In this document: positions 5,065 to 49,134 of the stretch, one piece after another | Layout: every line of letters begins with the position of its first letter | Position numbering within the stretch: position 1 is the stretch's first letter | Sequence record: NC_047985.1 | Reading direction: 5' to 3' (one strand) | Source of the DNA: Escherichia phage LL5 | DNA length: 49,788 bases | Program-made: the position numbers and the translations under genes | The notes under the pieces: generated by a model | What the model was told of the DNA's origin: nothing | Database searches by the model: none | What the model saw: only the letters and a program-made list of their open reading frames with translations

Positions 5065-5132
5065 TTGCGCAAGGCCATTTGATATAGTGGCCTTATTCAA
5101 GAGAAGCAACCAATCAGAGGAATAAACGATGA

Positions 5133-7319: not shown

Positions 7320-7448
7320 ATGCCTAACTACATAAAACCGTCGCAGTGGTGCGCACAGAAGCAAGAGGAAGCGTTAGAGCGCGGCGACACTGATACAGCG
7401 TTGCACTATTTTGAAATGCACCAACTATGGATTAGCAGAGGAATGTAA
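7320..7448 (+). CDS. hypothetical small protein (42 aa)
   Basis: AAGGTG SD; below track length cutoff. Confidence 0.35.
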   Translation: MPNYIKPSQWCAQKQEEALERGDTDTALHYFEMHQLWISRGM

Positions 7449-7449
7449 A

Positions 7450-7677
7450 ATGTTTGGACTTAACGAGGAACAATACAACGCAATAAAGAAAATGGCTCGC
7501 GAGTGCAACAAAGAATTGAAATTCGAATGTGACAACGGCAAGAAGTATGATCACGTTGCAACGGGAATTATCACAAAGCACCACACGCCAGTTTCGACGC
7601 TAATCACTCGCATTAGTTTTATTTGGCTTTGCGGTCACTTAGCGGAGCGGTTCGGTAGGGTTGGCGAGTACGAATAA
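7450..7677 (+). CDS. hypothetical protein (75 aa)
   Basis: GAGG SD then ATG 7450 (track ORF extends upstream without SD). Confidence 0.45.
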   Translation: MFGLNEEQYNAIKKMARECNKELKFECDNGKKYDHVATGIITKHHTPVSTLITRISFIWLCGHLAERFGRVGEYE

Positions 7678-7859
7678 TAGCCAGTTGAATCTGGTAAGGT
7701 TGACGGCGTGTTGTCTGATTGGTAGATTAAACGCCGTGAACATAAGAGACTCAATAGAGCAAAGCGCGGCGCGTTAGCCGTAAAGCCAAATCGGATGGGA
7801 TTGCATTGCAAATGACCATCGCGGGAACCGTAACCCGCAACCACTCAGGAGATTAATTT

Positions 7860-8069
7860 ATGAAATGCACTTTGCTTTTCAAAGAAAGAGTTTTGCACCC
7901 TGGTAGCGAACTTCTTGTTAATCGCGTCATTGTTTCAGAAAAAGATTTCTATATTGATGTTCAAAGGGATGGTGTCATAATCTTAAACAAAGAAGATACA
8001 AAGGCGTTTTCATTCCCAAAACACAACATCATCCAGCTTATCGTAGAGGAAGAAAATAATGCAGAATAA
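7860..8069 (+). CDS. hypothetical protein (69 aa)
   Basis: AGGAG SD. Confidence 0.5.
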   Translation: MKCTLLFKERVLHPGSELLVNRVIVSEKDFYIDVQRDGVIILNKEDTKAFSFPKHNIIQLIVEEENNAE

Positions 8070-8220
8070 AGAAATTGCAAAGGTTACAATCATTGTTGAG
8101 CGCGACGGCAAGAAAACGCGATACAAAAAACGCTTTGCAAAAGGAGAGGCGGTATTAGGCCGGATCGGTGATTTCATGGTGAAATTGCAAGAGGATAAGC
8201 CTGATGAAGTGGAAAGTTAA
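8059..8220 (+). CDS. hypothetical small protein (53 aa)
   Basis: GAGGA SD 8 nt upstream; overlaps neighbours at both ends. Confidence 0.3.
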   Translation: MQNKEIAKVTIIVERDGKKTRYKKRFAKGEAVLGRIGDFMVKLQEDKPDEVES

Positions 8221-8386
8221 CTTTACCATTAGGCGCATTGGTCGCAATTGCGGATCATGCAAACAAGAATTTGAAACGGTTGTTACAGCATGTAGCGCTG
8301 AAATGGCTGTAAGATTTGCTAAAGAATATTCTGGAGCAGATCCAGAAACGCACCAATTTTCAATCAATTATGTGAGGGCTATATAA
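8204..8386 (+). CDS. hypothetical protein (60 aa)
   Basis: GAGGA SD 9 nt upstream. Confidence 0.4.
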   Translation: MKWKVNFTIRRIGRNCGSCKQEFETVVTACSAEMAVRFAKEYSGADPETHQFSINYVRAI

Positions 8387-8616
8387 TGCTGATGTTTTTT
8401 TATGGTGTTGGCGTGACTGTTGCTATTGGTTTTCTGATTCTTTGGGCTATTGGCAAAGCCTCAAAGAAAATGGAAGTTGAACGAAAAATTGCAAGCGCGT
8501 TTTATGACAGCAAGAATGATTGCTGGAAGGTTCGAGGGAATTATATTGCTATTGCGCAAATCATTGAGAATCGCATAAAGCATGGCAAGCCTGGAAGCAT
8601 CAAGTATATTGACTAA
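8386..8616 (+). CDS. small membrane protein (76 aa)
   Basis: N-terminal TM helix MLMFFYGVGVTVAIGFLILWAIG. Confidence 0.45.
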   Translation: MLMFFYGVGVTVAIGFLILWAIGKASKKMEVERKIASAFYDSKNDCWKVRGNYIAIAQIIENRIKHGKPGSIKYID

Positions 8617-8632: not shown

Positions 8633-8657
8633 AACCCGCCTTGCGCGGGTTTTTTTG
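8633..8657 (+). terminator. rho-independent terminator ending the early region
   Basis: CCCGC..GCGGG stem followed by 7 T. Confidence 0.7.
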
Positions 8658-8678
8658 TGCATACAATTTAGCTATAAT
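8650..8678 (+). promoter_or_regulatory. candidate late promoter (perfect -10 TATAAT, weak -35)
   Basis: TATAAT at 8673-8678 between terminator and small terminase start. Confidence 0.3.
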
Positions 8679-18764: not shown

Positions 18765-18770
18765 TATTAA

Positions 18771-18795
18771 GGGGCGCATTGCGTCCCTTTTTTAT
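18771..18795 (+). terminator. rho-independent terminator after major tail gene
   Basis: GGGGCGC..GCGTCCC then TTTTTT. Confidence 0.6.
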
Positions 18796-18841
18796 TTGAT
18801 GTAATATCACCTCAATATTTAACCACTCAGGAGAAATGACA

Positions 18842-19510: not shown

Positions 19511-22420
19511 ATGGCTGAACAATTTGCAGGTTTAACACTTGGCGTTAACGTCGAGCAGTTAAACAGGGCTGTAAAGTCATTGCAGGACTTTAAAAAAGCA
19601 AACGACGAAGCAAAGAAAGGCGTTGAGAGCTTTGTTAATGAGGAAGAAATTGCAAAGCAAAGAGCAAAACAATTAGCTGATGAATTGGCGAAACAGAGCC
19701 GTGAATTTAAACGCATTCAGGACACTGTTGATCCGACAGCGGCGAAAATGCGCAAGCTATCTCAGGCAGCAAGAGATCTTGATAAGCTATGGCAAAAGGG
19801 CCTTGTTCCCGATGAAACGTTTTTCCAGTTGGGGAGTATGCTGGAAACTCAGATCAGTAAGCTGGAGCGTAATAAAAAGGCGTTAACGGAAGAAGGCCGC
19901 GCAGCACTTGAGGAATCAAAAGCCAAAGATAAAGCAGCGTTAGCCGGAAAAACTTTCCTTGCGGATCTGGAATCGCAAGCAGCCGCTCTTGGCAAAACAA
20001 AAGCCGAATTACTGGAAATGAAAGCGGCGCAACTTGGCGTAAGTGCTCAGGCAGCGCCATTCATTGCACAGCTTAAAGCGCAAGAAAAACAGATGAATTT
20101 AACCGGAATTAGCGCAGGGCAATATAACCAGGCAATGCGAATGCTTCCGGCTCAGATCACTGACGTTGTAACGTCGCTGGCTTCCGGTATGCCTGTTTGG
20201 TTGGTTGCAATCCAGCAGGGTGGACAGATTAAAGATTCTTTCGGCGGCGTTGGTAATACGTTTAAAGTGCTGTTGTCGTTTCTGAATCCGGTAAACGTTG
20301 GCCTTGCCGCATTAGCCGTTTCAATGGGTGCTCTTGTTAAGGCTGGTTATGATGCGTATAAGTCGCAACGTGACTTGCAAGAGGCGTTGGTGCTGACTGG
20401 TGGCTATGCTGGCACAAGCGGCGCACAGTTCGATAAGCTGGCGCAGGACATTAATAACAGCACTGATGCGACGATAGGAAGCATCCGATCCATCGCAACA
20501 GAGCTTGCAAAATCCGGCAAATTCACGATTGATCAGATTAAATCGATCACAAAGACTACCGCTCAGTGGTCAACGGTAACGGGTGAATCAAGCGACAAGA
20601 TAACCGATTACTTTAATAAGATTGCTGGCGATCCGGTTAAAGGTCTTGCAGAGCTAAACGAGCAATTCAACTTTTTAAGCGAAGGGCAGTTAACTTATAT
20701 TGCAGACCTGGAGGAAACGAAAGGAAAAACGGAAGCAGTGACGGCGGCGACAAAGTTATTTGCTGATGTTATGGATCAGAGATTAGCTAAACTGGCAGAC
20801 TCCGCAACGCCATTAGAAAAGATGTGGACGAACATTAAAAAATGGGCGTCAGATGCATGGGGTTGGGTTGGAGATCACACGCTGGCGGCGCTTAACCTGA
20901 TTATTGACGTTGTAGCCGGAACCGTTGAGCAGGTTCGTTACTTGCTTAATCAGGGTGATATTCTCATTGGTGAGTTTATCGTGTCTGCAACAAAGGCTAT
21001 GCAAAAAATACCTGGTCTTGATGGAGTTGGTGATTCAGTAATTGCACAGCAGCAACAGATCATTAATAAATCAAAAGAGCAAAACAAAGAGCTATTAAAA
21101 TCAATTGCCGAACGTAACGAGCGAGTCAAAAAAGGCGAGCAGGGTTACATTGACATGATAAAAAATCGTGCGGCGGTTGAACAGCAATATGCTACTAAAA
21201 CAAAGGATAATATCAGGAAGGAAGCCGAGGAATTAGCCAAACGCGATAAAAAGCAAAAGGCTGAAAAAGTTAAGGTATCGGCTGGCGATAAGCTGGAAGA
21301 ACAATATCAGCGTGATATCCTGGCGTTAGAAACTCAATTAAGAGTTTTGAAAGAGCACAAGACGATCACAGATACCATAAGCCAGCAACGTAAATCTTTA
21401 TGGGCTGAACAAGCTAAAATTCAGATTTTGCAAGAAGCCTCAACAAAACGGCAACTTACTGATGAAGAAAAAAGCATTTTAGCCAACAAAGATAAGATCC
21501 TAGCGATGGCTGAACAAAAAGCTATTTTAGGAGATCAGATTGTTGCACAAACGCGCCTTAATCAGTTGCAAGATAGCTCAATCAAGTTTATCCAGCAGCA
21601 GAAAGCAGCAACAGAAGCACTAGCCAAAACCAGAGGGTTAAGTGAACGTGAAGCAGCAAGAGCGGCGGAACGTGCAAAGGTTGAGGCTGATTATCTTGCC
21701 AAAGGAGGCAAGGAAGGAGATCCGCAACTTAAAGCCATGATGGATGCCTTAGACAACCGCTATAAAGAGGAAGATGATAAACGCGCTGATTGGTTAGCTG
21801 GCGCTAAAAATGCCTTTGCGGAGTATGGCGAGGAAGCAATGAACATGTATGATAATATCGGCAACATTGCGAGCCAGGCGCTAAACGGCCTATCGCAACA
21901 AATGGCTGATTTTTTGACTACTGGACAAGCCAACTTTAAAGACTTTGCAAAATCGATCATTAGCCTTATTGTTCAGATGATCACAAAGATGGTTATCTTC
22001 AATAGCATTTCCGGCATGATGGGCGGCTCAACATGGACGCTTGGAAGCCTTTTAAGCGGTGCTGGTTTTTCTGGCGGCGGTTATACTGGCGACGGTGGCA
22101 AATATGATCCGGCTGGAGTTGTTCATAAAGGTGAGTTTGTTTTTACCAAAGAGGCAACGCAAAGGATCGGAGCCAAAAACCTGTATCGCATGATGCGAGG
22201 TTATGCAAACGGCGGTCAAGTAGGAAGCGTGACAACTGGCGGCGCTGGCATCAATCGCGGTGCATCGCAATTTGCATTTGGTGATATCAACGTTAACATT
22301 GACAACGGTCAAGATCCAAAAGGGATGGAAACTGGTATTAAGATGATTTTCACCGAAATGATTCAACGTTCATGCTCGCAAGGTGGCGAGGTTTATAATT
22401 TTGTTCATGGGAGGGCTTAA
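19511..22420 (+). CDS. tail tape measure protein
   Basis: 969 aa, coiled-coil-rich with internal hydrophobic segments; GAGGG SD. Confidence 0.85.
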   Translation: MAEQFAGLTLGVNVEQLNRAVKSLQDFKKANDEAKKGVESFVNEEEIAKQRAKQLADELAKQSREFKRIQDTVDPTAAKMRKLSQAARDLDKLWQKGLVPDETFFQLGSMLETQISKLERNKKALTEEGRAALEESKAKDKAALAGKTFLADLESQAAALGKTKAELLEMKAAQLGVSAQAAPFIAQLKAQEKQMNLTGISAGQYNQAMRMLPAQITDVVTSLASGMPVWLVAIQQGGQIKDSFGGVGNTFKVLLSFLNPVNVGLAALAVSMGALVKAGYDAYKSQRDLQEALVLTGGYAGTSGAQFDKLAQDINNSTDATIGSIRSIATELAKSGKFTIDQIKSITKTTAQWSTVTGESSDKITDYFNKIAGDPVKGLAELNEQFNFLSEGQLTYIADLEETKGKTEAVTAATKLFADVMDQRLAKLADSATPLEKMWTNIKKWASDAWGWVGDHTLAALNLIIDVVAGTVEQVRYLLNQGDILIGEFIVSATKAMQKIPGLDGVGDSVIAQQQQIINKSKEQNKELLKSIAERNERVKKGEQGYIDMIKNRAAVEQQYATKTKDNIRKEAEELAKRDKKQKAEKVKVSAGDKLEEQYQRDILALETQLRVLKEHKTITDTISQQRKSLWAEQAKIQILQEASTKRQLTDEEKSILANKDKILAMAEQKAILGDQIVAQTRLNQLQDSSIKFIQQQKAATEALAKTRGLSEREAARAAERAKVEADYLAKGGKEGDPQLKAMMDALDNRYKEEDDKRADWLAGAKNAFAEYGEEAMNMYDNIGNIASQALNGLSQQMADFLTTGQANFKDFAKSIISLIVQMITKMVIFNSISGMMGGSTWTLGSLLSGAGFSGGGYTGDGGKYDPAGVVHKGEFVFTKEATQRIGAKNLYRMMRGYANGGQVGSVTTGGAGINRGASQFAFGDINVNIDNGQDPKGMETGIKMIFTEMIQRSCSQGGEVYNFVHGRA

Positions 22421-22767
22421 TGTTAGATGAATTTACCTGGTGTACGCAGATTCAGAGCGGCGGCGGTGTAATGACAACTACCAATAACGACAGGGAAGTT
22501 GTTTTTGGTAACGGTTATCGCCAAAAGGCATCTTCTGGATTTAACACGGAGCGGAGGGAGTTTTCTATTGTTTACGCTGGAACTGATTATAAAAAAGTGA
22601 AAGCGTTCATGACGGATCACAGATTAAAGCCTTTCTTGTGGAGGATGCCGGATGGTGATTTAGGTTTGTTTACGGTTAAAGCTGGAACGGTAGGGCTAAC
22701 GCCAATAAGCCCAACCGCTCAGGAAGTCAAAGCAACTTTTACGGAAGAATTTACATCCATGCGATAA
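22420..22767 (+). CDS. minor tail protein (lambda gpM-like)
   Basis: FGNGYRQKA and LKPFLWRMP resemble lambda M FGDGYSQRA / WKSFLWTPP. Confidence 0.8.
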   Translation: MLDEFTWCTQIQSGGGVMTTTNNDREVVFGNGYRQKASSGFNTERREFSIVYAGTDYKKVKAFMTDHRLKPFLWRMPDGDLGLFTVKAGTVGLTPISPTAQEVKATFTEEFTSMR

Positions 22768-22772
22768 ATCAA

Positions 22773-22797
22773 AGCCGCCATTGTGCGGCTTTTTTAT
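22773..22797 (+). terminator. hairpin plus T-tract between M-like and L-like genes
   Basis: AGCCGC-CATTGT-GCGGCT then TTTTT. Confidence 0.55.
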
Positions 22798-22834
22798 TGT
22801 GTCTATAATGGTGCTTTATTGGAGGGCATATAAT

Positions 22835-23593
22835 ATGGCTGAAAAACAGATCAAAAAGACTTTTGAAAATTGTCTGCAATCGCTTTTCCCTGGTGAAATA
22901 ATTACGCTTGTTGAGGTTGACGGCACAAAATTTGGTGCGCAGGTTTACCGCTTTCATGCTGAAAATATCGCGTACACTCCAGAGGAATTAATGCAAGCGC
23001 GTGAAACTGGAATATTGCCGCCGAAAGATATTAAATTTCGTGGCGAGGTTTACGGGGCGCGGCCTTTTGGGATTACTGGTATTGGCTTTACAAGTAACGG
23101 AAAGGCAGAGAAACCACAATTAGCGCTTTCAAATTTAGATAGCCGCGTATCTGCATTAATCAGATCATATAATGGAATGATGCAAGCCAAAGTAACAATT
23201 TGGGTTACATCGGCTGATTTAATTGATGAAGAAGGAAACGTGGAGGACGGCGCATATAGAAAGTTGGTTTATTATATTGAGCGTCCGAATTTTGTTAATC
23301 AGACGGTTGCACGTTTTGAATTAACATCACCTTATGACATGGACGGAATCATGATCCCGCCACGACTCACGCAAAGCGTTTGTTATTGGGCGCAAATGGG
23401 ATGGTATAGAAGCGGGAAAGGTTGCGGATATAACGGATCGGCAATGTTCGATAAAGATAATAATCCGGTAACAGATCCGAGCAAGGATTATTGCGCCGGA
23501 ACAGTGACAGCTTGTAAATTGCGCTTTGGCGCTCAAAATGAATTAGATTTCGGCGGTTGCGCAGTTGCATCACTATTGAGGAAAAATCAATGA
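22835..23593 (+). CDS. minor tail protein (lambda gpL-like)
   Basis: Cys-rich C-terminus CYWAQMGWYRSGKGCGY...CKLRF...FGGC as in lambda L. Confidence 0.85.
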   Translation: MAEKQIKKTFENCLQSLFPGEIITLVEVDGTKFGAQVYRFHAENIAYTPEELMQARETGILPPKDIKFRGEVYGARPFGITGIGFTSNGKAEKPQLALSNLDSRVSALIRSYNGMMQAKVTIWVTSADLIDEEGNVEDGAYRKLVYYIERPNFVNQTVARFELTSPYDMDGIMIPPRLTQSVCYWAQMGWYRSGKGCGYNGSAMFDKDNNPVTDPSKDYCAGTVTACKLRFGAQNELDFGGCAVASLLRKNQ

Positions 23594-24312
23594 TTAACGC
23601 AAAAATTAAACTTGAAATTATGCGCCATGCAAATGACGTTTATCCTAATGAATGTTGCGGCCTGGTAACTCAAAAATCACGCGTACAGAAATATCACCGG
23701 ATCGACAACGTAAGCAAGGAGCCGGAAAAGCATTTTGAAATGGACGCGGAACAATATGCAGAAGTTGAGGACGGCGGAGCAGATATCATCGCGATAGTTC
23801 ATAGCCATACAGGGGAGGGAGCAACCACAATCCCTAGCGCACACGATTTGTGCATGTGTGATGAAACTGGTGTTTCTTGGGTTATAGTTTCGATACCAGA
23901 AGGAGACATGAGAATCATAGAGCCACAATCACGACCTTTGATTGGTCGCCCCTGGTCGCTTGGCGCTTATGATTGTTGGGGGCTTATTATGGCCTGGCAT
24001 AAAGAGCAAGGCGTGATCCTGAATGATTTTCGCAAGCCGTATGAATGGTGGAAGCCGGAACATGGTGAAAACCTTTATCAAGATAATTACTTGAAAGAAG
24101 GTTTTATAGAAACAGGAGAGCCACCAAAGCCAGGTGATATGATCATAATGCAGTTGCAAGCGCCAGTATGGAACCACGCCGGAATTTATTTAGGCAACAA
24201 TCAACTATTGCATCATGCATTCGGCAAGTTGTCGCGAGTTGATTTATATTCTGGATGGTATCAGGAACACACAACAATGATTTGCAGACATAAGGATCTG
24301 AAAAATGAATAA
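23590..24312 (+). CDS. tail assembly protein (lambda gpK-like; JAMM/MPN plus NlpC/P60)
   Basis: JAMM motif HSHTGEGATTIPSAHD; Cys-His pair CWGLIMAWH. Confidence 0.85.
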   Translation: MINAKIKLEIMRHANDVYPNECCGLVTQKSRVQKYHRIDNVSKEPEKHFEMDAEQYAEVEDGGADIIAIVHSHTGEGATTIPSAHDLCMCDETGVSWVIVSIPEGDMRIIEPQSRPLIGRPWSLGAYDCWGLIMAWHKEQGVILNDFRKPYEWWKPEHGENLYQDNYLKEGFIETGEPPKPGDMIIMQLQAPVWNHAGIYLGNNQLLHHAFGKLSRVDLYSGWYQEHTTMICRHKDLKNE

Positions 24313-24904
24313 GGTTATCAACGTAAAATTATCAGGCTCATTAGGTCGCCGCTTTGGTGTTTTCCATAAATACGCCGTTGAGAGTTGGCCTGAATGCGTA
24401 AGGGCATTATCAAGCCAGGTTGAAGGATTCAAAGAATTTATGCAAAGTGAAATCGGATCAAAGATGAAATTTGCAATTTTCGTTGATGGTAAAAATGTTG
24501 GCCTGAATAATGATAGCGCATGGCGTTGCGCTCGTGAGGTTAGGATTGTTCCAGTTCCAACCGGTTCAAAATCTGGAGGTTTATTTCAAGTTGTATTAGG
24601 AGCTGTAATTATGGTTGCTGCATTCTATACTGGTGGCGCTTCACTTGCTGCAATGGGGGCTTTTTCTTCATCGGCTTTTATGATGGGCGGTGCTATGGTT
24701 CTTGGCGGAGTAATGCAGATGATTAGCCCACAACAAGGAGGAATGAGGATGGAGAGCCAAAGCGCAGCAAATAAACCATCATATGCGTTTGGTGGTGCTG
24801 TTAATACTACGGCGGCAGGTTATCCGGTATGTTTGCCATATGGTTATAGAACGGTTGGCGGCGCTGTATTCAGTGCTGGCTCATACGCAGAAGATAAACT
24901 TTAA
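24305..24904 (+). CDS. tail assembly protein (lambda gpI-like)
   Basis: 199 aa, Gly/Ala-rich hydrophobic C-terminal half; position between K-like and J-like. Confidence 0.75.
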   Translation: MNKVINVKLSGSLGRRFGVFHKYAVESWPECVRALSSQVEGFKEFMQSEIGSKMKFAIFVDGKNVGLNNDSAWRCAREVRIVPVPTGSKSGGLFQVVLGAVIMVAAFYTGGASLAAMGAFSSSAFMMGGAMVLGGVMQMISPQQGGMRMESQSAANKPSYAFGGAVNTTAAGYPVCLPYGYRTVGGAVFSAGSYAEDKL

Positions 24905-24912
24905 TTATATAA

Positions 24913-24936
24913 ACCCGCCGTTGCGCGGGTTTTTTG
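24913..24936 (+). terminator. hairpin plus T-tract before J-like gene
   Basis: ACCCGC-CGTTGC-GCGGGT then TTTTT. Confidence 0.6.
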
Positions 24937-24985
24937 TTACATGTACAATGGCAGCACGTTTAAATAGCATAAAAGGTTAAAAGCT

Positions 24986-27900
24986 ATGATCAAAAATATG
25001 ATAACTGGCAGTAAGGGCGGTTCTTCAAAGCCTCATACACCTGTTGAAATGGAAGATAACCTAATTTCAATCAACAGGATCAGAATTCTTTTAGCCGTTT
25101 CTGATGGTGAAGTTGATCCAAACTTTTCATTGAAAGATTTATATTTTGATGACGTTCCGGTTATGAATCAGGATGGTTCACTAAACTTTCAGAATGTTAA
25201 GGCAGAATTCAGACCAGGGACGCAAACGCAGGATTATATTCAGGGCTTTACTGATACAGCCAGCGAAGTTACGGTTGCTCGCGATCTGACAGCCGCAACG
25301 CCTTATATTATTTCTGTTACCAATAAAAACATTTCTGCGATCCGTATTAAAATTTTAATGCCTCGCGGGGTTACTCAGGAAGATAACGGAGATCTAACAG
25401 GCGTTCGCGTTGAATATGCTGTTGATATGGCTGTTGATGGTGCTGAATATAAAGAGGTTTTGCATGATGTAATTGAAGGTAAAACAATGAGCGGTTACGA
25501 CAGAAGCCGCAGAATTGATTTACCTGCTTTCAATGATCGTGTTTTATTGCGCGTCCGTCGCATGACAGATAGCACGTCAGCAAGGGTTACGGATTTGATT
25601 AAGATGCAGAGCTACGCAGAAGTAGTAGACGCTAAGTTTCGTTATCCCCTGACTGGTTTAGTTTACGTTGAGTTTGACAGTGAATTATTCCCTAATGATT
25701 TGCCGAATATAAGCATTAAAAAGAAATGGAAAATCATTAATGTTCCGTCTAATTACGATCCGATTAGCCGCACATATTCAGGCTCTTGGGATGGAACTTG
25801 GAAAAAGGCATGGAGCAATAACCCTGCTTTTGTTCTGTATGATTTAATCACCAATCAGCGTTACGGACTCGACCAACGAGAATTAGGCATTGCGATTGAT
25901 AAGTGGAGTATTTACGAATGTGCGCAATATTGCGATCAGATGGTTCCAGATGGCAATGGTGGAACAGAGCCGCGCTATCTATGCGACGTTGTGATCCAGA
26001 GCCAGGTAGAAGCGTATCAGCTTGTGCGTGATATTTGTTCAATCTTCCGTGGCATGAGCTTTTGGAATGGTGAGAGCCTTTCAATCGTGATCGATAAGCC
26101 TCGCGATGCGTCATACATCTTTACTAATGACAACGTTGTTAACGGTGAATTCACTTACACGTTTGCCAGCGAAAAAAGCATGTACACGCAATGCAACGTG
26201 ACTTTCGACGACGAACAAAACATGTATCAACAGGATGTTGAGGGAGTTTTCGAAACGGAGGCGGCGTTACGCTTTGGCTATAACAGCACGTCAATTACTG
26301 CGATTGGATGCACACGACGCAGCGAAGCCAACCGCCGTGGGCGATGGATTTTAAAAACCAACGTCAAGAGCACAACGGTAAACTTTGCTACAGGTCTGGA
26401 AGGTATGATCCCAACAGTAGGCGATGTGATTGTTGTATCTGATAACTTTTGGTCAAGCGCTCTAACGCTGAATCTATCAGGTCGCGTGATGGAGGTTAGC
26501 GGGTTGCAGGTGTTCACGCCGTTTAAGGTAGACGCAAGAGCAGGTGATCGAATTCTGGTAAATAAGCCGGATGGTAAGCCAGTTGGTAGAACCATTGCGC
26601 GTGTGAGTGATGACGGTAAAACGCTAACGCTAAACACGACATTTGGTTTTGACGTTCAGCCGGATACCATTTTTGCAATTGAGCGAACCGATATTGCACA
26701 GCAACGATATGTTGTAACAGGAATCACTAATGGTGACGGTGATGAAGAATTTACCTACAACATAACGGCTGTTGAATACGATCCGAACAAATACGATGAA
26801 ATTGATTATGGCGTAAACATTGATGACCGTCCGACTTCAATCGTGCAGCCTGACATTTTGCCAGCACCGAAAAACGTCAAGATCGAATCTTATTCGCGAG
26901 TTGTCCAGGGCACGAGCGTGGAAACAATGCATGTTTCATGGGATAAGGTTGAATATGCAAGCCTTTATGAAATGCAGTGGAGAAAAGACAATGGCAACTG
27001 GAACAACACGCCGCGCACAGCCAACAAGGAAACGGAAGTTGAAGGAATTTACGCGGGTAACTATCACGTAAGGGTTAGATCTGTTGCAGCTAATGGTTCA
27101 GCGTCTGGATGGTCAGCCATTGTAAGCGCCGGATTAACTGGCAAGGTTGGCGAACCGGAAAGGCCAATTAACCTTACTGCGTCTGACAATGAAGTTTTCG
27201 GAATTCGCGTAAAATGGGGTATGCCAGAAGGAAGCGGAGACACGGCATATATTGAGTTGCATCAAGCGCCAAACGGTTCTGATGGTCATCCTATTGTTGA
27301 TGAAGCAACGCTCTTAACGCTGATACCGTTCCCGCAATATGAGTATTGGCATTCAATACTGCCAGCGGGTCATGTTGTCTGGTACAAGGCAAGGGCAGTT
27401 GACAAAATCGGTAACGTTTCTGATTGGACTGATTTTGTGCGCGGCATGGCTTCCGACGATACGAGCATTATCACGGATCATATTAAGGTCGATATTGAAA
27501 ATTCTGATGGCTATAAGTGGTTGCAGGAAAACGCAATAAAGGCCAATGATAAGATCCACAGCACAGCGGAATCAGTGATTGAAAACGCATTAGCTAATGA
27601 TAAAGATGTTCGACGTATGCGAGTTGAAAACGGCAAGCGTAAAGCGGAGTTCTTGCAATCGCTGAAACTCATTGCAGACGAAACAGAAGCTAGGGTAACA
27701 CAGGTCACTCAAATGAGTGCGCAATTTGACGAGAAATTAACGGCTCAAAATAGCGAATTGAGAGAGGTTATTGCTAACAGCACAGAAACCATTAGCCAAA
27801 GGATTGATCAGCTTACAGCCACATTTGAGAGTGAAATTGATGGTGTTAAGCAGGATATCAAAGCGCAGATAACTGATGTTAACAAGGCAATTACCAATGA

Positions 27901-28762
27901 AGCGGAAGCGCGAGCGTCAGCGGATAGGGCGTTATCAACTCAAATTGGTGATACCCAATCAGCGGTTAACCAGAAACTTGATTCATGGGTTAACGGTACA
28001 AGCGTTGGTGCGATGTACGGCGTTAAGTTGGGGATCAGGTATAACGGGCAGGAATATAGCGCAGGTATGGCTCTTTCTCTTGTCGCTGATGGTGGCGGAG
28101 TTAAATCACAATTCCTGTTTGATGCCGGAAGATTTGCGATCATAAACAACCAACAGAGCGGAGCCTTTACATTGCCGTTTGTTGTTGAGAATAATCAGGT
28201 GTTTATCAACAGCTTACTTGTGAAAAATGGCTCTATTGGTAACGCTCAGATTGCGGATCAGATTAACTCTAACAACTGGAGCAGCGGCGCGGCTGGATGG
28301 ATGATTAATAAGAATGGTTATGCTGAATTTAACCAGGTAACGGTAAGGGGTACAGTGTACGCAAACGCCGGATCATTCACTGGTAACGTTTACGCTACTG
28401 ATGGTTGGTTTAGGGGTACTGTTTACGCTGAAAAAATCGAGGGCGACGTTGCAAAGGCTGTTGTTCTTGGGTTTAACGGATCGGTTCACATTCCGGCAGT
28501 AAACTACAACAGACACCTTGTGATTCCTTATGTTGGTTTGCATGGCTATACCTATTCAGGCGGTACGTGGGGCGGTGGTACTGTTTGGGTTGATTCATCA
28601 TATGGCGGTCGCTTGGCTGACGTTCAAGCTACGGCTATGCATGGCGGTTCAAGTGGATACCTTCTGTTGCCAGCGGGTAACGCAACAACGCTTTCATATG
28701 GTGGCAACCTGAATCACGCTAACGCGGTTCCAGTATTAACAATACTGCTATTCAAAGCATAA
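24986..28762 (+). CDS. tail tip / host specificity protein (lambda gpJ-like)
   Basis: 1258 aa following M-L-K-I; conserved N-terminal two-thirds, divergent C-terminus. Confidence 0.9.
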   Translation: MIKNMITGSKGGSSKPHTPVEMEDNLISINRIRILLAVSDGEVDPNFSLKDLYFDDVPVMNQDGSLNFQNVKAEFRPGTQTQDYIQGFTDTASEVTVARDLTAATPYIISVTNKNISAIRIKILMPRGVTQEDNGDLTGVRVEYAVDMAVDGAEYKEVLHDVIEGKTMSGYDRSRRIDLPAFNDRVLLRVRRMTDSTSARVTDLIKMQSYAEVVDAKFRYPLTGLVYVEFDSELFPNDLPNISIKKKWKIINVPSNYDPISRTYSGSWDGTWKKAWSNNPAFVLYDLITNQRYGLDQRELGIAIDKWSIYECAQYCDQMVPDGNGGTEPRYLCDVVIQSQVEAYQLVRDICSIFRGMSFWNGESLSIVIDKPRDASYIFTNDNVVNGEFTYTFASEKSMYTQCNVTFDDEQNMYQQDVEGVFETEAALRFGYNSTSITAIGCTRRSEANRRGRWILKTNVKSTTVNFATGLEGMIPTVGDVIVVSDNFWSSALTLNLSGRVMEVSGLQVFTPFKVDARAGDRILVNKPDGKPVGRTIARVSDDGKTLTLNTTFGFDVQPDTIFAIERTDIAQQRYVVTGITNGDGDEEFTYNITAVEYDPNKYDEIDYGVNIDDRPTSIVQPDILPAPKNVKIESYSRVVQGTSVETMHVSWDKVEYASLYEMQWRKDNGNWNNTPRTANKETEVEGIYAGNYHVRVRSVAANGSASGWSAIVSAGLTGKVGEPERPINLTASDNEVFGIRVKWGMPEGSGDTAYIELHQAPNGSDGHPIVDEATLLTLIPFPQYEYWHSILPAGHVVWYKARAVDKIGNVSDWTDFVRGMASDDTSIITDHIKVDIENSDGYKWLQENAIKANDKIHSTAESVIENALANDKDVRRMRVENGKRKAEFLQSLKLIADETEARVTQVTQMSAQFDEKLTAQNSELREVIANSTETISQRIDQLTATFESEIDGVKQDIKAQITDVNKAITNEAEARASADRALSTQIGDTQSAVNQKLDSWVNGTSVGAMYGVKLGIRYNGQEYSAGMALSLVADGGGVKSQFLFDAGRFAIINNQQSGAFTLPFVVENNQVFINSLLVKNGSIGNAQIADQINSNNWSSGAAGWMINKNGYAEFNQVTVRGTVYANAGSFTGNVYATDGWFRGTVYAEKIEGDVAKAVVLGFNGSVHIPAVNYNRHLVIPYVGLHGYTYSGGTWGGGTVWVDSSYGGRLADVQATAMHGGSSGYLLLPAGNATTLSYGGNLNHANAVPVLTILLFKA

Positions 28763-28884
28763 AAAGGAGGTAAATCAATGCCCTGGCTTAACGGTCGGGG
28801 CATTTTGTTTTCTTTTGTTCCACGATGTTCGCAACCGAATACGGCGTAAAATTGAAAACGTCTTGATAACAAAAAGAACAAATT

Positions 28885-28903
28885 AAATATCTATATAATA
28901 CAT
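28885..28903 (+). repeat. 19-bp AT-rich motif AAATATCTATATAATACAT (second copy at 32-50)
   Basis: identical 19-mer in both large noncoding regions, each followed by similar TAATTATTATTATATAT stretch. Confidence 0.7.
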
Positions 28904-29167
28904 ACACTTAGAGTTTAATTATTATTATATATATCTATTTGTATTATTATTGTTTCTATTGTTCTATATGGTTTGTGGTGGTTGTGTGTTTTGTATTGGT
29001 TGATGGTTATATATCACATGGTATGTATTTATATATGGTATGCGGCGCAAATGCGTGAACAATGGAACACAAAAACAACAATTAGTAAAATCATAAATTT
29101 ACGATGTGATTTTGTTGTCAATGCTAGTTGTAAACGTATGCAAAACAAAAAGAACACTTAAAGGGTA

Positions 29168-29195
29168 TTGACTACATGCAACAAAGACATATAAT
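29168..29195 (+). promoter_or_regulatory. strong sigma70-like promoter for exonuclease-Erf-SSB operon
   Basis: TTGACT-16 nt-TATAAT; about 28 nt upstream of SD/ATG 29224. Confidence 0.6.
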
Positions 29196-29223
29196 GCAGG
29201 CATACCAACGAGGGGATGACAAA

Positions 29224-30279
29224 ATGAGCGATTTTAAAGTTTACACCTTTGACCAGTTAACCAATGATAAATATCACGATCCTAAAGGTTGGGCGGCTGA
29301 ATACGTTAGCGGTTCAAGCCTGGCAGAAATCTTTGCAAGTTGTCCGGCAGCATGGAAATACAGACCACGCGAGGAAAGCAAAGCGCTTGTTTTCGGTACG
29401 CAGTCACATACCAACTTTCAAAGCAGTGAGTTGTTCGCAAAAGAGTACCGCCGAGCGCCAGCGCCGGAAGATTACGAAAACTTAATCACAAGCCAAACGG
29501 CATTAGCCAGCAAGTTAAAATCTTTTGGCCTGACTGGTACAAGCGGGAAAACTTATCCAGACCTGATAAAAATGATGGTTGATTGTGGTGAGGATCTTAA
29601 TGTTCAGTGGCTGATTGAAATGATCGCAGAAAGCGAGGCGCGAGCGGATAACGTTGAATTGGTTCCTGCTAAAGATTACGACGCTTGCGTTACCATGCGC
29701 CGCGTACTGGAAAGCATACCTGAACACAACGCTTGTATGAATAGCCCAACAGCACAACGCGAGCTATCAATTTTCGGCACTATAAAAGGCGTGAAAGTCA
29801 AAGTAAGGCTTGACCATGTTGATATTTGCAAGGATGTGCTTGCAACGGTGATTTCCGGCTATGACGGTGAAGGGAATCCGGTTTATGAAACAACGCGATT
29901 TGATGAAGCGATTGTGATCACTGATTACAAAACAACGTCAAGCGCTAACCCAACGGAGTTTTCACGGCTGGCATTTAATCATGGTTACTACTTGAAAATG
30001 GCATTGCAGCATGACCTATTCAAGAAAGCGTATCCAGAAGAAACGCGCCCCGTAGTAGTCAGATTGCTGGCGCAGGAAAAGAAAGAGCCTTATTTACCTA
30101 TTGCATACCGCATGACGGATGAACAATTGAAGATCGGACGGCTTCAATACATGAGTGTGATAAACCAGTTTGCAGAATGCCAGGAAAATGACGTTTGGCC
30201 TTCATACGCAAACGGAGAGCCTGAAATTGATCTTCAAACGCCTGATTGGGTTCGTCGTCAATACAAAGGTTTTTTATAA
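29224..30279 (+). CDS. PD-(D/E)xK exonuclease (recombination exonuclease, putative)
   Basis: motifs RLDHVD and ITDYKTT; sits upstream of Erf-like annealase. Confidence 0.6.
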   Translation: MSDFKVYTFDQLTNDKYHDPKGWAAEYVSGSSLAEIFASCPAAWKYRPREESKALVFGTQSHTNFQSSELFAKEYRRAPAPEDYENLITSQTALASKLKSFGLTGTSGKTYPDLIKMMVDCGEDLNVQWLIEMIAESEARADNVELVPAKDYDACVTMRRVLESIPEHNACMNSPTAQRELSIFGTIKGVKVKVRLDHVDICKDVLATVISGYDGEGNPVYETTRFDEAIVITDYKTTSSANPTEFSRLAFNHGYYLKMALQHDLFKKAYPEETRPVVVRLLAQEKKEPYLPIAYRMTDEQLKIGRLQYMSVINQFAECQENDVWPSYANGEPEIDLQTPDWVRRQYKGFL

Positions 30280-30299
30280 ATAGCACTTTTTGCTAAAAA
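30278..30299 (+). promoter_or_regulatory. conserved box copy 7 (AAATAGCACTTTTTGCTAAAA)
   Basis: followed by perfect 8-bp hairpin 30308-30331 whose loop holds TATACT; 76 nt upstream of ATG 30357. Confidence 0.7.
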
Positions 30300-30356
30300 A
30301 GCCATTAGATGCGTGGTATACTACACGCATCAACCAACGAGAGAGAGGAAATAAAA

Positions 30357-30647
30357 ATGGAACAGCAATTCAATGAACAAGACATTCAAGATGTACGCGA
30401 TCACGTAGGCGGATTTGTAAACGCATTAGGAATTATGCAACGCCAGTTCTTGCGCGTAATTGATCCAAGCGAATCACCGGAAACTCTTGAATATGTTCGC
30501 AAGGTTGCATATTTGATTGATAACGTTGTGTTAACGGTTCTTCAAATGGAAAATAACGAAGAACATCGCAAGATGATTAATCAGGCAAGTGAAATCATGA
30601 TCCAGAATTTGATTGATTATCACAACGAGAACAAAGAAAAGTATTAA
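30357..30647 (+). CDS. hypothetical protein (96 aa)
   Basis: GAGAGAGG SD. Confidence 0.5.
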   Translation: MEQQFNEQDIQDVRDHVGGFVNALGIMQRQFLRVIDPSESPETLEYVRKVAYLIDNVVLTVLQMENNEEHRKMINQASEIMIQNLIDYHNENKEKY

Positions 30648-30693
30648 TTAACATGGCGGCGCAAGCCGCCATTATTAAACCGGAGCCAATGAA

Positions 30694-31356
30694 ATGAAAT
30701 TTTCCGAACAAAACGCAAACGTAATTAAGGCATTGTTTGAGGCGCGTCAATTATTCACCAAAGTAAAAAAGGATAAGCAAAACACGCACCTGAAAAATAA
30801 ATATGCAACTCTTGACAGCGTTCTTGATGCTATTATGCCTGGCCTTACTGATAAGGGTTTATTCCTTACTCAAGATCAGAAAGTTGGCGAAGATTTGAAA
30901 TCAATGACGGTTTTAACTCGCTTCATTCACGTTGAATCAAATGAATGGGTTGAATATAGTTTCACGTTGCCAATGCAGAAATTAGATCCACAAGGCGGCG
31001 GCTCAACAAACAGCTATGCGAGACGTTATGCTCTTTGCACGGCTCTTGGCCTGGCAACGGCTGACGATGACGCAAATCTTGCCACCAAAAACGCGCAGGA
31101 TTGGAAAAAAGATCTTGATGCTTGCGATAACCTTACAGACTTGCAAGAAACGTTTAAAACTGCTTACAAGCAATCTGACGCAGCAAACCGCCGAATCATT
31201 AAAGAACATTACGACAAGCTGAAAGCTAAAATGGAAATCGGAAAGGCTCGCGGTTTTAATCCGGCTGAACCAGCGGCGAATGTTGCAAAGAATGAAAAGG
31301 TTGAAAAGGAACCGCAACAGGAAGTAAAATCACAATCTATCACTGACTTTGAATAA
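30694..31356 (+). CDS. erf: Erf-family single-strand annealing protein
   Basis: KYATLDSVLDAI and GSTNSYARRYALCTALGLATADDD resemble P22 Erf. Confidence 0.75.
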   Translation: MKFSEQNANVIKALFEARQLFTKVKKDKQNTHLKNKYATLDSVLDAIMPGLTDKGLFLTQDQKVGEDLKSMTVLTRFIHVESNEWVEYSFTLPMQKLDPQGGGSTNSYARRYALCTALGLATADDDANLATKNAQDWKKDLDACDNLTDLQETFKTAYKQSDAANRRIIKEHYDKLKAKMEIGKARGFNPAEPAANVAKNEKVEKEPQQEVKSQSITDFE

Positions 31357-31394
31357 TTTATCGCGGGGCGATAACGCCCCGATAAGGAAATAAA

Positions 31395-31820
31395 ATGCAC
31401 GTTATCACCGGAGAAATTCGCAAAGAGCCTTTTGTTAATCAAGGGCAAAACGGCACGCTTTATATTGTTGATCTTTCAGAATCATATAAAGATCGAGAAG
31501 GTAACAGACAATACACCAATTACAAATTCTTCTTTAATGCAAAAAGCGAGGGAATGAATAATTGGTATCGTGAAGCATTTCAGCAGGGTAAAGTTATTTC
31601 TGTATCATGCGATCAGTTGCGCATTGATAGCCAGGAATACAACGGGCAGGTTTATAACACATTGACGGCGGCGGGTTGGCCTAATCTTTTATTCAGCCAG
31701 CGCGGAGAAGGGAAAGCGCCACAACAGCAACGACCTACTCAGCAACAGCCACAACAGAAACAACAAGCACCACAAAACAACGAGCCTCCAATTGATTTCG
31801 ACGACGATATCCCATTCTGA
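31395..31820 (+). CDS. ssb: single-stranded DNA-binding protein
   Basis: Gln/Pro-rich linker and acidic tail DFDDDIPF as in E. coli SSB. Confidence 0.9.
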   Translation: MHVITGEIRKEPFVNQGQNGTLYIVDLSESYKDREGNRQYTNYKFFFNAKSEGMNNWYREAFQQGKVISVSCDQLRIDSQEYNGQVYNTLTAAGWPNLLFSQRGEGKAPQQQRPTQQQPQQKQQAPQNNEPPIDFDDDIPF

Positions 31821-31825
31821 TAAAA

Positions 31826-31852
31826 TAAAACCCCGCAATGCGGGGTTTTTTA
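31826..31852. terminator. bidirectional terminator between ssb (+) and tail fibre (-)
   Basis: AAAACCCCGCAATGCGGGGTTTTTT flanked by A- and T-tracts. Confidence 0.75.
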
Positions 31853-49078: not shown

Positions 49079-49134
49079 CGTTTGACTCTCCTGATTGGTT
49101 GATGTGTGTATTATGCCGGAATCAGATCCGGCAC

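What the first reader, a model, noticed from the sequence alone, without database searches (positions are those of the whole stretch)
7678..7859. Unannotated 180-bp intergenic stretch with inverted repeats in the early region
The interval contains inverted repeats (CGCCGTG…CGCGGCG) and lacks the box element. It does not show a tRNA cloverleaf or a T-psi-C-like motif, but it could encode a small RNA or hold a regulatory site.
Basis: seen in the sequence. Interest (0 to 1): 0.25.

Follow-up and report, generated by a model that had tools for sequence, protein, structure and literature searches.

The report
Conserved promoter and structured leader RNA
The "empty" 182-bp gap in this T1/Tls-like phage holds an undescribed host-type promoter followed by a ~125-nt folded non-coding RNA that is conserved, with compensatory base-pair changes, across the whole T1 phage family, so it is a real new RNA element of unknown function.

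Summary
The window is a Tls-like phage (Drexlerviridae). The gap 7678-7859 lies between homologs of Tls gp24 and gp25. It is not a tRNA and matches no Rfam family. Comparison with about 50 distinct relatives shows two things. First, an invariant sigma70-type promoter: TTGACG 7700-7705, 17 bp, TAGATT 7723-7728, with a CTGATTGG box in the spacer. Second, a leader of about 125 nt (about 7735-7859). It has a conserved single-stranded 5' end, two small hairpins (7749-7760, 7766-7781) with abundant compensatory changes, two further hairpins (7794-7820, 7821-7838), and then the ribosome-binding site of gp25.

On a structure-blind alignment, 91% of cells pair, against 22-45% for slid controls. The element is single-copy and found only in phages. 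It occurs in T1, Tempevirinae, Braunvirinae, Webervirus and others. The gene behind it varies, and in one relative it is a tRNA. In many genera its 3' hairpin is followed by a U-run, like a terminator. This window has no such U-run.

My best reading is a cis-acting leader that controls transcription elongation or termination (confidence 0.4). A stand-alone small RNA or decoy is the main rival. Neither the 2024 Tls re-annotation nor any paper I searched describes the element.

The parts
7450..7677 (+). Upstream gene: homolog of Tls gp24 / T1 gp59 (phrog_303, unknown function). It lies 0-2 genes upstream of the element throughout the family.
   Evidence: (823 phage records)
7699..7741 (.). 10-bp inverted repeat bracketing the promoter: GTTGACGGCG (7699-7708) and CGCCGTGAAC (7732-7741), 9/10 complementary. 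The left arm contains the -35 element and the right arm covers the start site. It is exact in all 14 Tlsvirus-type loci and partly kept in HCF1/Vc1, but it is not family-wide.
   Evidence: (I1)
7700..7705 (+). -35 hexamer TTGACG. TTGAC is invariant in all relatives.
7715..7722 (+). CTGATTGG box in the promoter spacer, abutting the -10. It is invariant or CTGAYYGG-like in relatives. It is one copy of an octamer that is about 15-fold over-represented genome-wide.
7723..7728 (+). -10 hexamer TAGATT, with TG at 7720-7721 (extended -10). The TAnnnT pattern is kept in relatives, 17 bp from the -35.
7733..7748 (+). S1: the near-invariant single-stranded 5' segment GCCGTGAACATAAGAG (family consensus nCGTnnACAnAAGAG). 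The transcription start is inferred at about 7735-7736, 7-8 nt after the -10.
   Evidence: the start site is an inference
7749..7760 (+). HP1: small hairpin, CTC/GAG stem with loop AATA. In this window the outer pair is an A.C mismatch; most relatives have G-C there. All 4 pairs covary across the family.
7761..7765 (+). Conserved linker AAAGC (AACGC in most relatives).
7766..7781 (+). HP2: GCGGC / GCCGT stem with the conserved hexaloop GCGTTA (GCGATA in most relatives). It pairs in 92-100% of cells, and 4-5 of its 5 pairs show compensatory changes.
7794..7820 (+). HP3: GATGG/CCATC outer stem and TTGC/GCAA inner stem with loop ATT. Compensatory variants occur within Tlsvirus (GATTG/CAATC, TCGC/GCGA). 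In other genera it is replaced by different hairpins; in T1 and NBD2 the loop resembles a tRNA D-arm.
7821..7838 (+). HP4: GCGGG/CCCGC stem displaying the conserved loop AACCGTAA. The CCGTAA(G) motif is kept in nearly all relatives. No U-run follows it in this window.
7839..7859 (+). Conserved AACCACTCAGGAG ribosome-binding region (AGGAG at 7847-7851) and the spacer to the ATG. The downstream gene is swapped among relatives right after this point.
7860..8069 (+). Downstream gene: gp25 homolog (phrog_30084), absent in many relatives. It is followed by gp26 (8059-8220), gp27 (8204-8386) and gp28 (8386-8616).
8633..8651 (+). First strong intrinsic terminator downstream of the leader, just before terS and terL.
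   Evidence: T28 in Tls

Best explanation
Shown: the gap contains an unannotated sigma70-type promoter firing rightward and, from about 7735, a non-coding leader RNA of about 125 nt. The leader has a conserved unpaired 5' end and four hairpins, and it runs into the ribosome-binding site of gp25. It is a single-copy element conserved across Drexlerviridae.

Inferred mechanism: the RNA acts in cis on the polymerase that makes it, as an elongation/termination-control leader. The invariant 5' module (S1-HP1-linker-HP2) folds as it emerges. Alone, or with a bound factor, it decides whether RNA polymerase passes the hairpin that forms the 3' module and the terminators beyond it.

In about 20 distinct relatives the 3' module is a strong hairpin followed by a U-run, placed directly before the ribosome-binding site. 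The conserved downstream genes there can only be expressed by read-through. In this window the U-run is missing. Transcription should therefore continue into gp25-gp28, then meet the terminator at 8633 in front of terS/terL and the terminator-rich late operon.
For: Promoter: TTGACG-17-TAGATT with TG. TTGAC, the spacer box and TAnnnT are kept in about 51 distinct sequences from at least 6 genera or subfamilies.

Structure: a model built on 12 sequences finds one strong hit in the window (148.8 bits). It also hits T1 (48.9 bits, E about 1e-10), NBD2, haarsle and others, always on the + strand and always behind the gp24 homolog. On the model-fitted alignment 92.9% of cells pair, against 25-36% for slid controls. 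On the structure-blind MAFFT alignment 91.3% pair, against 22-45%, the covariation score is 0.681 against at most 0.117, and 8 of 9 pairs have double changes. G-U pairs fit only the + strand.

The leader is independent of the gene behind it: gp25, gp26, gp27 or a tRNA follows in different relatives.

Terminator-like 3' hairpins of 34-53 nt, dG -12 to -21 kcal/mol, with 4-7 U in the next 8 nt, sit immediately before the ribosome-binding site in about 20 distinct relatives.

At least 8 strong co-directional terminators lie downstream in the window, and 11 are annotated in T1. The Tls re-annotation found only 3 sigma70 promoters and 21 terminators and leaves transcription control open (PMC11447400).

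The leader is 94.9% identical to Tls, whereas the adjacent gp24 protein is 64% identical.
Against: There are no transcript data, so the start site and the RNA ends are inferred.

This window lacks the U-run, so there is nothing to attenuate within the leader itself. The simple terminator scan does not call the relatives' hairpins, because their loops exceed 8 nt or the run is only U4.

I found no conserved alternative (anti-terminator) pairing.

Several late terminators carry their own overlapping promoters (TTGCGN-17-TAnAAT). The late operon therefore need not depend on this promoter.

The model gives no hit on the HK022 region expected to hold the put sites. There is no boxA in the leader. 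The upstream protein has no Pfam match and its structure model is unusable (pLDDT 58.9).
Confidence: 0.4

Rival explanations
1. A stand-alone small RNA that works in trans. It would be released by termination (type-B relatives), by RNase P cleavage where a tRNA follows, or by processing of the 5' UTR (this window). It could pair with targets through its conserved 5' end, or act as a decoy or sponge for a protein. Candidates are an RNA-binding protein, a ribonuclease or a tRNA-directed enzyme, bound through its repeated CCGUAA(G)/GUAAG loops.
For: In many genera the layout is promoter, then an RNA of about 105-110 nt, then a hairpin with a U-run. This is the classic small-RNA gene layout, with an unpaired conserved 5' end and an AAC-rich spacer.

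The element is indifferent to what follows it, including tRNA-Ser 8 nt downstream in NBD2.

CCGTRA-like motifs recur three times in the window (7734, 7778, 7828, family D1). GUAAG-type motifs recur in the Braunvirinae and Rogunavirus versions. The T1/NBD2 HP3 has a D-arm-like loop, and HP4 resembles an anticodon arm. The last point is my reading from memory, not a test.
Against: The window version has no terminator, so a discrete RNA would need processing. The complement of the 5' segment is not enriched in the phage (3 hits against 2.0 expected). The complement of the loop is not enriched once a higher-order background is used. No host target search was possible. ARAGORN and the Rfam tRNA model do not recognise any tRNA-like fold.
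Confidence: 0.3
2. An ordinary 5' UTR whose hairpins stabilise the mRNA, direct RNase processing, or set the translation efficiency of whichever gene is placed behind the conserved AACCAyTCAGGAG ribosome-binding site.
For: The leader ends in a conserved ribosome-binding cassette, and genes are exchanged exactly behind it. The same AACCAnTCAGGAG context recurs at other gene starts, for example about 18821-18833, 5110 and 49091.
Against: Stabilising 5' hairpins normally sit at the very 5' end, whereas here 16 nt are unpaired. Near-invariance of unpaired segments and loops (S1, AACGC, GCGATA, CCGTAA) across a family whose proteins are about 40% identical is more than stability needs. The ribosome-binding site is not sequestered in any predicted fold. 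The element is kept where a tRNA, not an ORF, follows it.
Confidence: 0.12
3. A DNA-level element. One version is an operator: the 10-bp inverted repeat bracketing the promoter, or the CTGATTGG box, binds a repressor or activator. Another is a replication signal: a transcript-primed (R-loop) origin, or a single-strand initiation site whose hairpins form in DNA.
For: The inverted repeat GTTGACGGCG-N23-CGCCGTGAAC spans -35 to +1 and is exact in 14 Tlsvirus-type loci. The CTGATTGG box is invariant in the spacer even where its distance to the -10 shifts by 1-3 bp. The origin of T1-like phages is unknown (PMC11447400). ssDNA hairpins would also show compensatory change.
Against: The inverted repeat is lineage-specific, not family-wide. 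CTGAYTGG is dispersed 26-31 times in both orientations, mostly inside genes, so it is not specific to this promoter. S1 is not repeated elsewhere. The covarying hairpins lie downstream of the promoter on the transcribed side, with G-U (G-T) pairs on the RNA-like strand. RNA explains this more simply. An operator would explain the promoter but not HP1-HP4.
Confidence: 0.1
4. A missed small protein gene, or no function at all (chance structure in a spacer).
For: A 69-aa ORF on the minus strand (7635-7844) and a 38-aa ORF on the plus strand (7661-7777) exist. One record (Sephi301i) annotates a 36-aa CDS inside the leader.
Against: The 69-aa ORF is broken by stops or frameshifts in DanielBernoulli, phage 36, W011D, BananaBelafonte, HCF1 and Vc1. 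Indels in the region are not multiples of three. The Sephi301i-type ORF stops after 6 codons in the window (read directly from the sequence). Substitutions come in pairs across stems. Conservation exceeds that of the flanking genes.
Confidence: 0.03

Closest known systems
HK022 putL/putR RNAs (cis-acting processive antiterminator RNAs)
   Same: A conserved structured RNA made directly downstream of a sigma70 promoter of a coliphage. Its core is two stem-loops with conserved unpaired residues. No dedicated protein partner has been identified. It lies upstream of intrinsic terminators (features of put from PMC9378689).
   Different: The model of this family finds nothing in HK022 20,000-32,000, the span expected to hold both put sites. 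The hairpins here are much smaller and are preceded by a 16-nt unpaired segment. There is an extra 3' module. No binding to RNA polymerase and no anti-pausing activity have been shown.
Lambda late promoter region PR'-qut-6S RNA-tR'
   Same: A strong host-type promoter shortly upstream of the terminase and structural genes. Conservation extends through the promoter spacer and the initially transcribed region. In many relatives a short non-coding transcript ends at a hairpin with a U-run, which must be read through to express what follows.
   Different: No Q-like protein was found: gp24 is 75 aa with no Pfam match. No conserved -10-like pause element lies in the initially transcribed region. In this window there is no terminator in the leader. 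Small genes lie between the leader and terS. The spacer box is a dispersed genome-wide motif, not a unique Q-binding site.
conAn2 RNA / ConAn1 protein of pLS20-type conjugative plasmids (bipartite processive antitermination)
   Same: A non-coding RNA element near the head of a long operon that holds many intrinsic terminators. A small gene of unknown fold lies just upstream (PMC8191782).
   Different: That system occurs in Gram-positive plasmids and its elements are 260-600 bp. There is no sequence relationship. Nothing links gp24 to the RNA except synteny.
Riboswitch or protein-dependent attenuator leaders
   Same: A highly conserved folded 5' domain followed, in type-B relatives, by a terminator-like hairpin placed just before the ribosome-binding site.
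   Different: No Rfam class matches. No conserved mutually exclusive pairing was found. The window version lacks the terminator. No ligand or protein partner is evident.
Phage tRNA genes and leader-derived stable RNAs (P1 c4 / P4 CI RNA, T4 species 1 and 2 RNAs)
   Same: The same locus carries tRNA-Ser (NBD2) or tRNA-Arg (AHP24) just behind the element. The T1/NBD2 HP3 has a D-arm-like loop. c4 and CI RNAs are also cut out of operon leaders (from my own knowledge).
   Different: There is no cloverleaf and no T-arm. ARAGORN and the Rfam tRNA and C4 models are silent. No complementary target sites were found in the phage.

Membership tests
tRNA / tmRNA | Cloverleaf with T-arm and acceptor stem, detectable by ARAGORN or the Rfam tRNA model | tested here: not met
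   ARAGORN found 0 genes in the whole window. Rfam gave no hit at E<=10 in 7400-8100. In relatives only the genuine NBD2 tRNA-Ser is found, downstream of the element.
Any curated RNA family (Rfam 15: riboswitches, ribozymes, C4, known sRNAs and others) | Covariance-model score at or near the gathering threshold | tested here: not met
   There were no matches at gathering threshold in the window. At E<=10 the only hit is a chance snoRNA match outside the gap. Nothing overlaps the element in the T1, haarsle, JeanPiccard, NBD2, AHP24 or Sushi loci.
HK022 put RNA | RNA of about 70 nt with two stem-loops just downstream of an early sigma70 promoter | tested here: inconclusive
   A two-hairpin module (HP1, HP2) begins 16 nt after the inferred start. 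Stem sizes, spacing and the extra 3' module differ from the description in PMC9378689.
HK022 put RNA | Sequence and structure homology to putL/putR | tested here: not met
   Model R1 finds no match at E<=10 in HK022 20,000-32,000, the span expected to hold both put sites.
HK022 put RNA | Acts in cis by binding the RNA polymerase beta' zinc-binding domain, suppressing pausing and termination over kilobases | not testable with these tools
   This needs in vitro transcription or genetics. Only the context could be checked: at least 8 co-directional terminators lie downstream.
Lambda N / nut site | boxA (CGCUCUUUA-like) plus a boxB hairpin in the transcript, and an N-like protein | tested here: not met
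   No CTCTT-type boxA is present on the + strand of 7733-7859 (direct reading of the sequence). The neighbouring proteins have no Pfam or PHROG function.
Lambda Q / qut late promoter | Q gene upstream; a unique Q-binding element in the promoter; a sigma-dependent pause signal (-10-like) at +1 to +6; a terminated short transcript | tested here: not met
   gp24 has no Q-family domain. The spacer box CTGATTGG occurs 25-31 times genome-wide. No -10-like hexamer is conserved in the initially transcribed region. A terminated short transcript is plausible only in type-B relatives, not in this window.
Sigma70 promoter | TTGACA-like -35, 16-18 bp spacer, TATAAT-like -10 with A2 and T6 | tested here: met
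   TTGACG-17-TAGATT with an upstream TG. TTGAC and TAnnnT are conserved in about 51 distinct relatives. Activity itself was not tested.
Intrinsic terminator / attenuator | GC-rich hairpin immediately followed by a U-run | tested here: not met
   Window: HP4 is followed by AACCAC, with at most 1 U in 8, and the scan reports no site in the gap. About 20 distinct relatives have hairpins of -12 to -21 kcal/mol followed by 4-7 U, but the simple scan does not call them.
Hfq-type trans-acting sRNA | Own promoter, an unpaired seed, and a Rho-independent terminator with a U-tail | tested here: inconclusive
   The promoter and an unpaired conserved 5' end are present. The U-tailed hairpin is present only in type-B relatives. 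No enriched complementary sites occur in the phage. Host targets were not searched.
Protein-coding gene | An ORF conserved in frame among relatives | tested here: not met
   The ORFs are broken in more distant relatives and indels are not multiples of three.

The most novel reading that the evidence does not exclude
The element is a new class of phage RNA with a direct molecular activity. One possibility is a put-like RNA that rides on E. coli RNA polymerase and makes it terminator-resistant, which would give T1-like phages a protein-free way to express their terminator-studded late region. The other is a tRNA-arm-mimicking decoy that neutralises a host RNA-directed enzyme. In either case it would be a family-wide, single-copy RNA unrelated to any curated family.
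Probability: 0.22. Interest if true: 0.85.

Novelty: new variant of a known kind. Interest (0 to 1): 0.6.

Why it matters
T1 is one of the classic coliphages and a notorious laboratory contaminant, yet how T1-like phages organise transcription is openly unresolved. The 2024 Tls re-annotation found only three sigma70 promoters, 21 terminators and an unexplained 21-nt repeat (PMC11447400).

This work adds a fourth promoter, the best conserved of them, and the first structured non-coding RNA candidate for the family. The RNA has a clear covariation-supported model, so it can be deposited, searched for and mutated.

The element is small, single-copy and sits just upstream of the packaging and structural genes. 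Simple experiments could therefore test whether it controls terminator read-through, acts in trans, or counteracts a host factor. These include start-site and 3'-end mapping, read-through assays and compensatory mutants. It also corrects annotation errors in public records, where CDS starts run into the leader.

Tried and rejected
1. tRNA or tmRNA: none found.
2. Known RNA families: none in the window or in six relatives.
3. Small ORFs in the gap: not conserved.
4. The long-range repeat 7621-7634 / 7778-7791 (13/14 complementary): only 1-10 of 14 in relatives, so it is chance.
6. Complement of the 5' segment in the phage: 3 hits against 2.0 expected.
7. Complement of the HP4 loop: apparent enrichment (17 against 4.9) disappears against a higher-order background.
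8. S1 as a dispersed protein-binding site: 2 hits against 1.1 expected.
9. Copies outside phages: none in 5,426 E. coli genomes or 72,556 plasmids. A pattern scan of 185,579 species genomes gave two chance hits with no structure.
10. Homology to HK022 put: none.
11. The idea that this is the only promoter able to serve the late operon was weakened. Terminators at 18769, 22771 and 24911 (and T1 22793 and 24972) carry overlapping TTGCGN-17-TAnAAT promoters.
12. gp24 as a recognisable partner protein: no Pfam domain. Only 2 homologs were found by the indexed search. The AF2 model has pLDDT 58.9 and is too poor for a fold search.
13. A loose promoter pattern scanned over viral contigs returned mostly random loci. 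The single-protein locus search found one locus. The profile search gave the 80 loci that were used.
14. Literature searches for transcript maps or RNAs of T1-like phages found nothing relevant.

Full report
**What the window is.** The 1-kb stretch around the finding matches Tls-like phages at 88-89% identity (Drexlerviridae, Tempevirinae, Tlsvirus). In Tls the equivalent interval lies between gp24 and gp25 and carries no annotation. In the window the gp24-like ORF ends at 7677 and the gp25-like ORF starts at 7860. All neighbouring proteins are of unknown function.

**Checking the observation.** The gap is real and holds no tRNA, no Rfam family and no copy of the 21-nt 'box' repeat. The quoted repeat, CGCCGTG (7732-7738) and CGCGGCG (7765-7771), is present. 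It is short, and it is not what is conserved. Treated as a helix it pairs in only 66% of cells across 44 relatives, and it overlaps a hairpin that pairs in 92-100%. Folding the window sequence alone is unremarkable: z = -1.25 for the plus strand and +0.31 for the minus strand.

**A conserved promoter.** A consensus scan finds TTGACG (7700-7705), 17 bp, TAGATT (7723-7728), with TG upstream. An alignment of 11 and then 16 phages from several genera shows TTGAC, the spacer octamer CTGATTGG and TAnnnT to be invariant or nearly so. The same holds in about 51 distinct sequences. The 2024 Tls re-annotation lists only three sigma70 promoters (P01, P51, P57), and this one is not among them (PMC11447400). 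In Tlsvirus-type phages the promoter is bracketed by a 10-bp inverted repeat, GTTGACGGCG / CGCCGTGAAC. That repeat is not family-wide.

**A structured RNA.** Downstream of the promoter the alignment shows hairpins kept by compensatory changes. I built a covariance model from 12 sequences with a four-hairpin structure. I searched the window and 95 loci, 80 of them found through a profile of gp24 homologs.
- The model gives one strong hit in the window, 7733-7862, at 148.8 bits.
- It also hits T1 (48.9 bits), NBD2, haarsle, Klebsiella phages and others.
- Every hit is on the + strand, just behind the gp24 homolog or one gene further.
- Braunvirinae and Rogunavirus carry recognisable versions further downstream.

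Pair counts on the model-fitted alignment: 92.9% of cells pair, against 25-36% when partners are slid. HP2 is 100% paired, with double changes at all five pairs. On a structure-blind MAFFT alignment of 44 distinct 5' modules, 91.3% pair against 22-45%. The covariation score is 0.681 against at most 0.117, and 8 of 9 pairs have double changes. G-U pairs fit only the + strand.

**Anatomy in the window.**
- S1, 7733-7748: unpaired, family consensus nCGTnnACAnAAGAG.
- HP1, 7749-7760.
- Linker, 7761-7765.
- HP2, 7766-7781, with a conserved GCG(A/T)TA loop.
- HP3, 7794-7820.
- HP4, 7821-7838, with the loop AACCGTAA.
- The ribosome-binding region AACCACTCAGGAG, then the ATG at 7860.

**Evidence of selection.** The gap is 94.9% identical to Tls, whereas the gp24 protein beside it is only 64% identical. 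ORFs inside the gap are not conserved. The element is single-copy in the window and in T1. It is absent from 5,426 E. coli genomes, 72,556 plasmids and a pattern scan of species-representative genomes.

**Clues to function.** The gene behind the leader changes among relatives exactly after the ribosome-binding site: gp25, gp26 or gp27. In NBD2 a tRNA-Ser follows 8 nt after the last hairpin. The RNA is therefore not a gene-specific operator.

The 3' module comes in two forms. Type A, as in this window, T1 and NBD2, has HP3 plus an HP4 that shows CCGUAA in its loop, with no U-run. Type B occurs in about 20 distinct sequences, including Hanrivervirus. It has one long hairpin (-12 to -21 kcal/mol) with a CCGUAAGAC bulge, followed by 4-7 U directly before the ribosome-binding site. 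The simple terminator scan does not call these hairpins.

In type-B phages the conserved downstream genes can be expressed from this promoter only by read-through. Downstream of the window's leader lie gp25-gp28, a strong terminator at 8633, terS/terL, and at least seven more strong co-directional terminators. T1 has 11 annotated. This layout recalls lambda PR'-6S RNA-tR' and HK022 put, and the conAn system. I therefore rank a cis-acting elongation/termination-control leader first.

**Caveats.**
- There is no homology to put.
- No conserved alternative pairing was found.
- No partner protein is recognisable.
- Several late terminators carry their own overlapping promoters, so the late operon does not strictly need this one.
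- No transcript data were found in the literature.

**Rivals.** A trans-acting small RNA or decoy fits the type-B promoter-RNA-terminator layout and the repeated CCGUAA/GUAAG motifs. However, no complementary sites are enriched in the phage. A plain stabilising or translational 5' UTR does not explain the invariance of unpaired segments. A DNA-level operator or origin could explain the promoter-flanking repeat and the box, but not the covarying hairpins. Coding or chance is excluded.

**Verdict.** This is a real element: a promoter plus a structured leader RNA, conserved across the family. Rfam 15 has no family for it, and no paper I could search describes it. The mechanism is unproven. It is a new variant of a known kind, promoter-proximal regulatory RNA. 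Interest 0.6.

Noticed in passing
window, 25 sites, e.g. 1329, 2797, 5110, 7715, 10009, 18xxx-49476; T1 = L222: The octamer CTGATTGG (usually CTGATTGGT) occurs 25 times against 1.6 expected. CTGAYTGG occurs 31 times against 1.9 in the window and 26 times against 2.2 in T1, where CTGACTGG dominates. It is found on both strands and in both orientations relative to genes, in mixed contexts. Some copies abut a -10 (2797, 7715, 47713). Some, read in reverse as CCAATCAG-GAG, abut ribosome-binding sites (5110, 49091, and many in T1). Many lie inside genes. The sequence equals the eukaryotic Y-box core. Its function is unknown.
   Followed up: partly
It is the 21-nt direct repeat aaATAGCACnnnTTGnTAAAA reported for Tls as being of unknown function (PMC11447400). 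No + strand copy lies between 6350 and 30280.
   Followed up: partly
window 18769-18830, 22771-22815, 24911-24955 (also 8633-8675); T1 L222 22793 and 24972: Composite terminator-promoters. The loop of a strong intrinsic terminator contains TTGCGN, and a TAnAAT hexamer lies 17 bp downstream (15 bp at 8633), past the T-run. A -35 element is thus embedded in the terminator hairpin. The arrangement is conserved between this phage and T1.
   Followed up: partly
L004 (Sazh) CDS 2010-2219; L006 (phage 36) CDS 758-961; L002 (Sephi301i) CDS 1997-2107; L010 CDS 679-771: Public annotations run into the leader. Two gp26-type genes are started about 45-50 nt too early, inside HP3/HP4. Two short CDSs are called within the leader. 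The Sephi301i-type ORF stops after 6 codons in the window.
   Followed up: partly
L138 (NBD2) 969-1186; L139 (AHP24) 1017-1216: In Vilniusvirus NBD2 a tRNA-Ser gene starts 8 nt after the last hairpin of the element. In Rogunavirus AHP24 a tRNA-Arg follows a longer, divergent version. T1 and NBD2 HP3 has a tRNA D-arm-like loop (AUAGUGGU(U)AA) on the same UUGC/GCAA or GGGC/GCCC stem.
   Followed up: partly
window 7840-7851, about 18821-18833, 5103-5125, 49080-49100 (-): A recurring ribosome-binding context, AACCA(A/C/T)TCAGGAG, appears upstream of several unrelated genes. It partly overlaps the reverse complement of the CTGATTGG octamer.
   Followed up: no
one search hit list (OR786094.1; 19 'Campylobacter phage' records; Vibrio and Pseudomonas phage records): Records labelled Streptococcus agalactiae phage MBBL140 and Campylobacter jejuni phages are 80-89% identical to this enterobacterial Tls-like phage. 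The host labels are probably wrong, or the preparations were contaminated with T1-like phages.
   Followed up: no
window 7770-7783 and 7820-7833: Direct repeat CGCGTTAGCCGTAA / CGCGGGAACCGTAA (79% identical, 50 nt apart). The HP2 loop with its 3' arm resembles the HP4 5' arm with its loop. A third CCGTGA lies at 7734. This could reflect an internal duplication or three sites for one binder.
   Followed up: no
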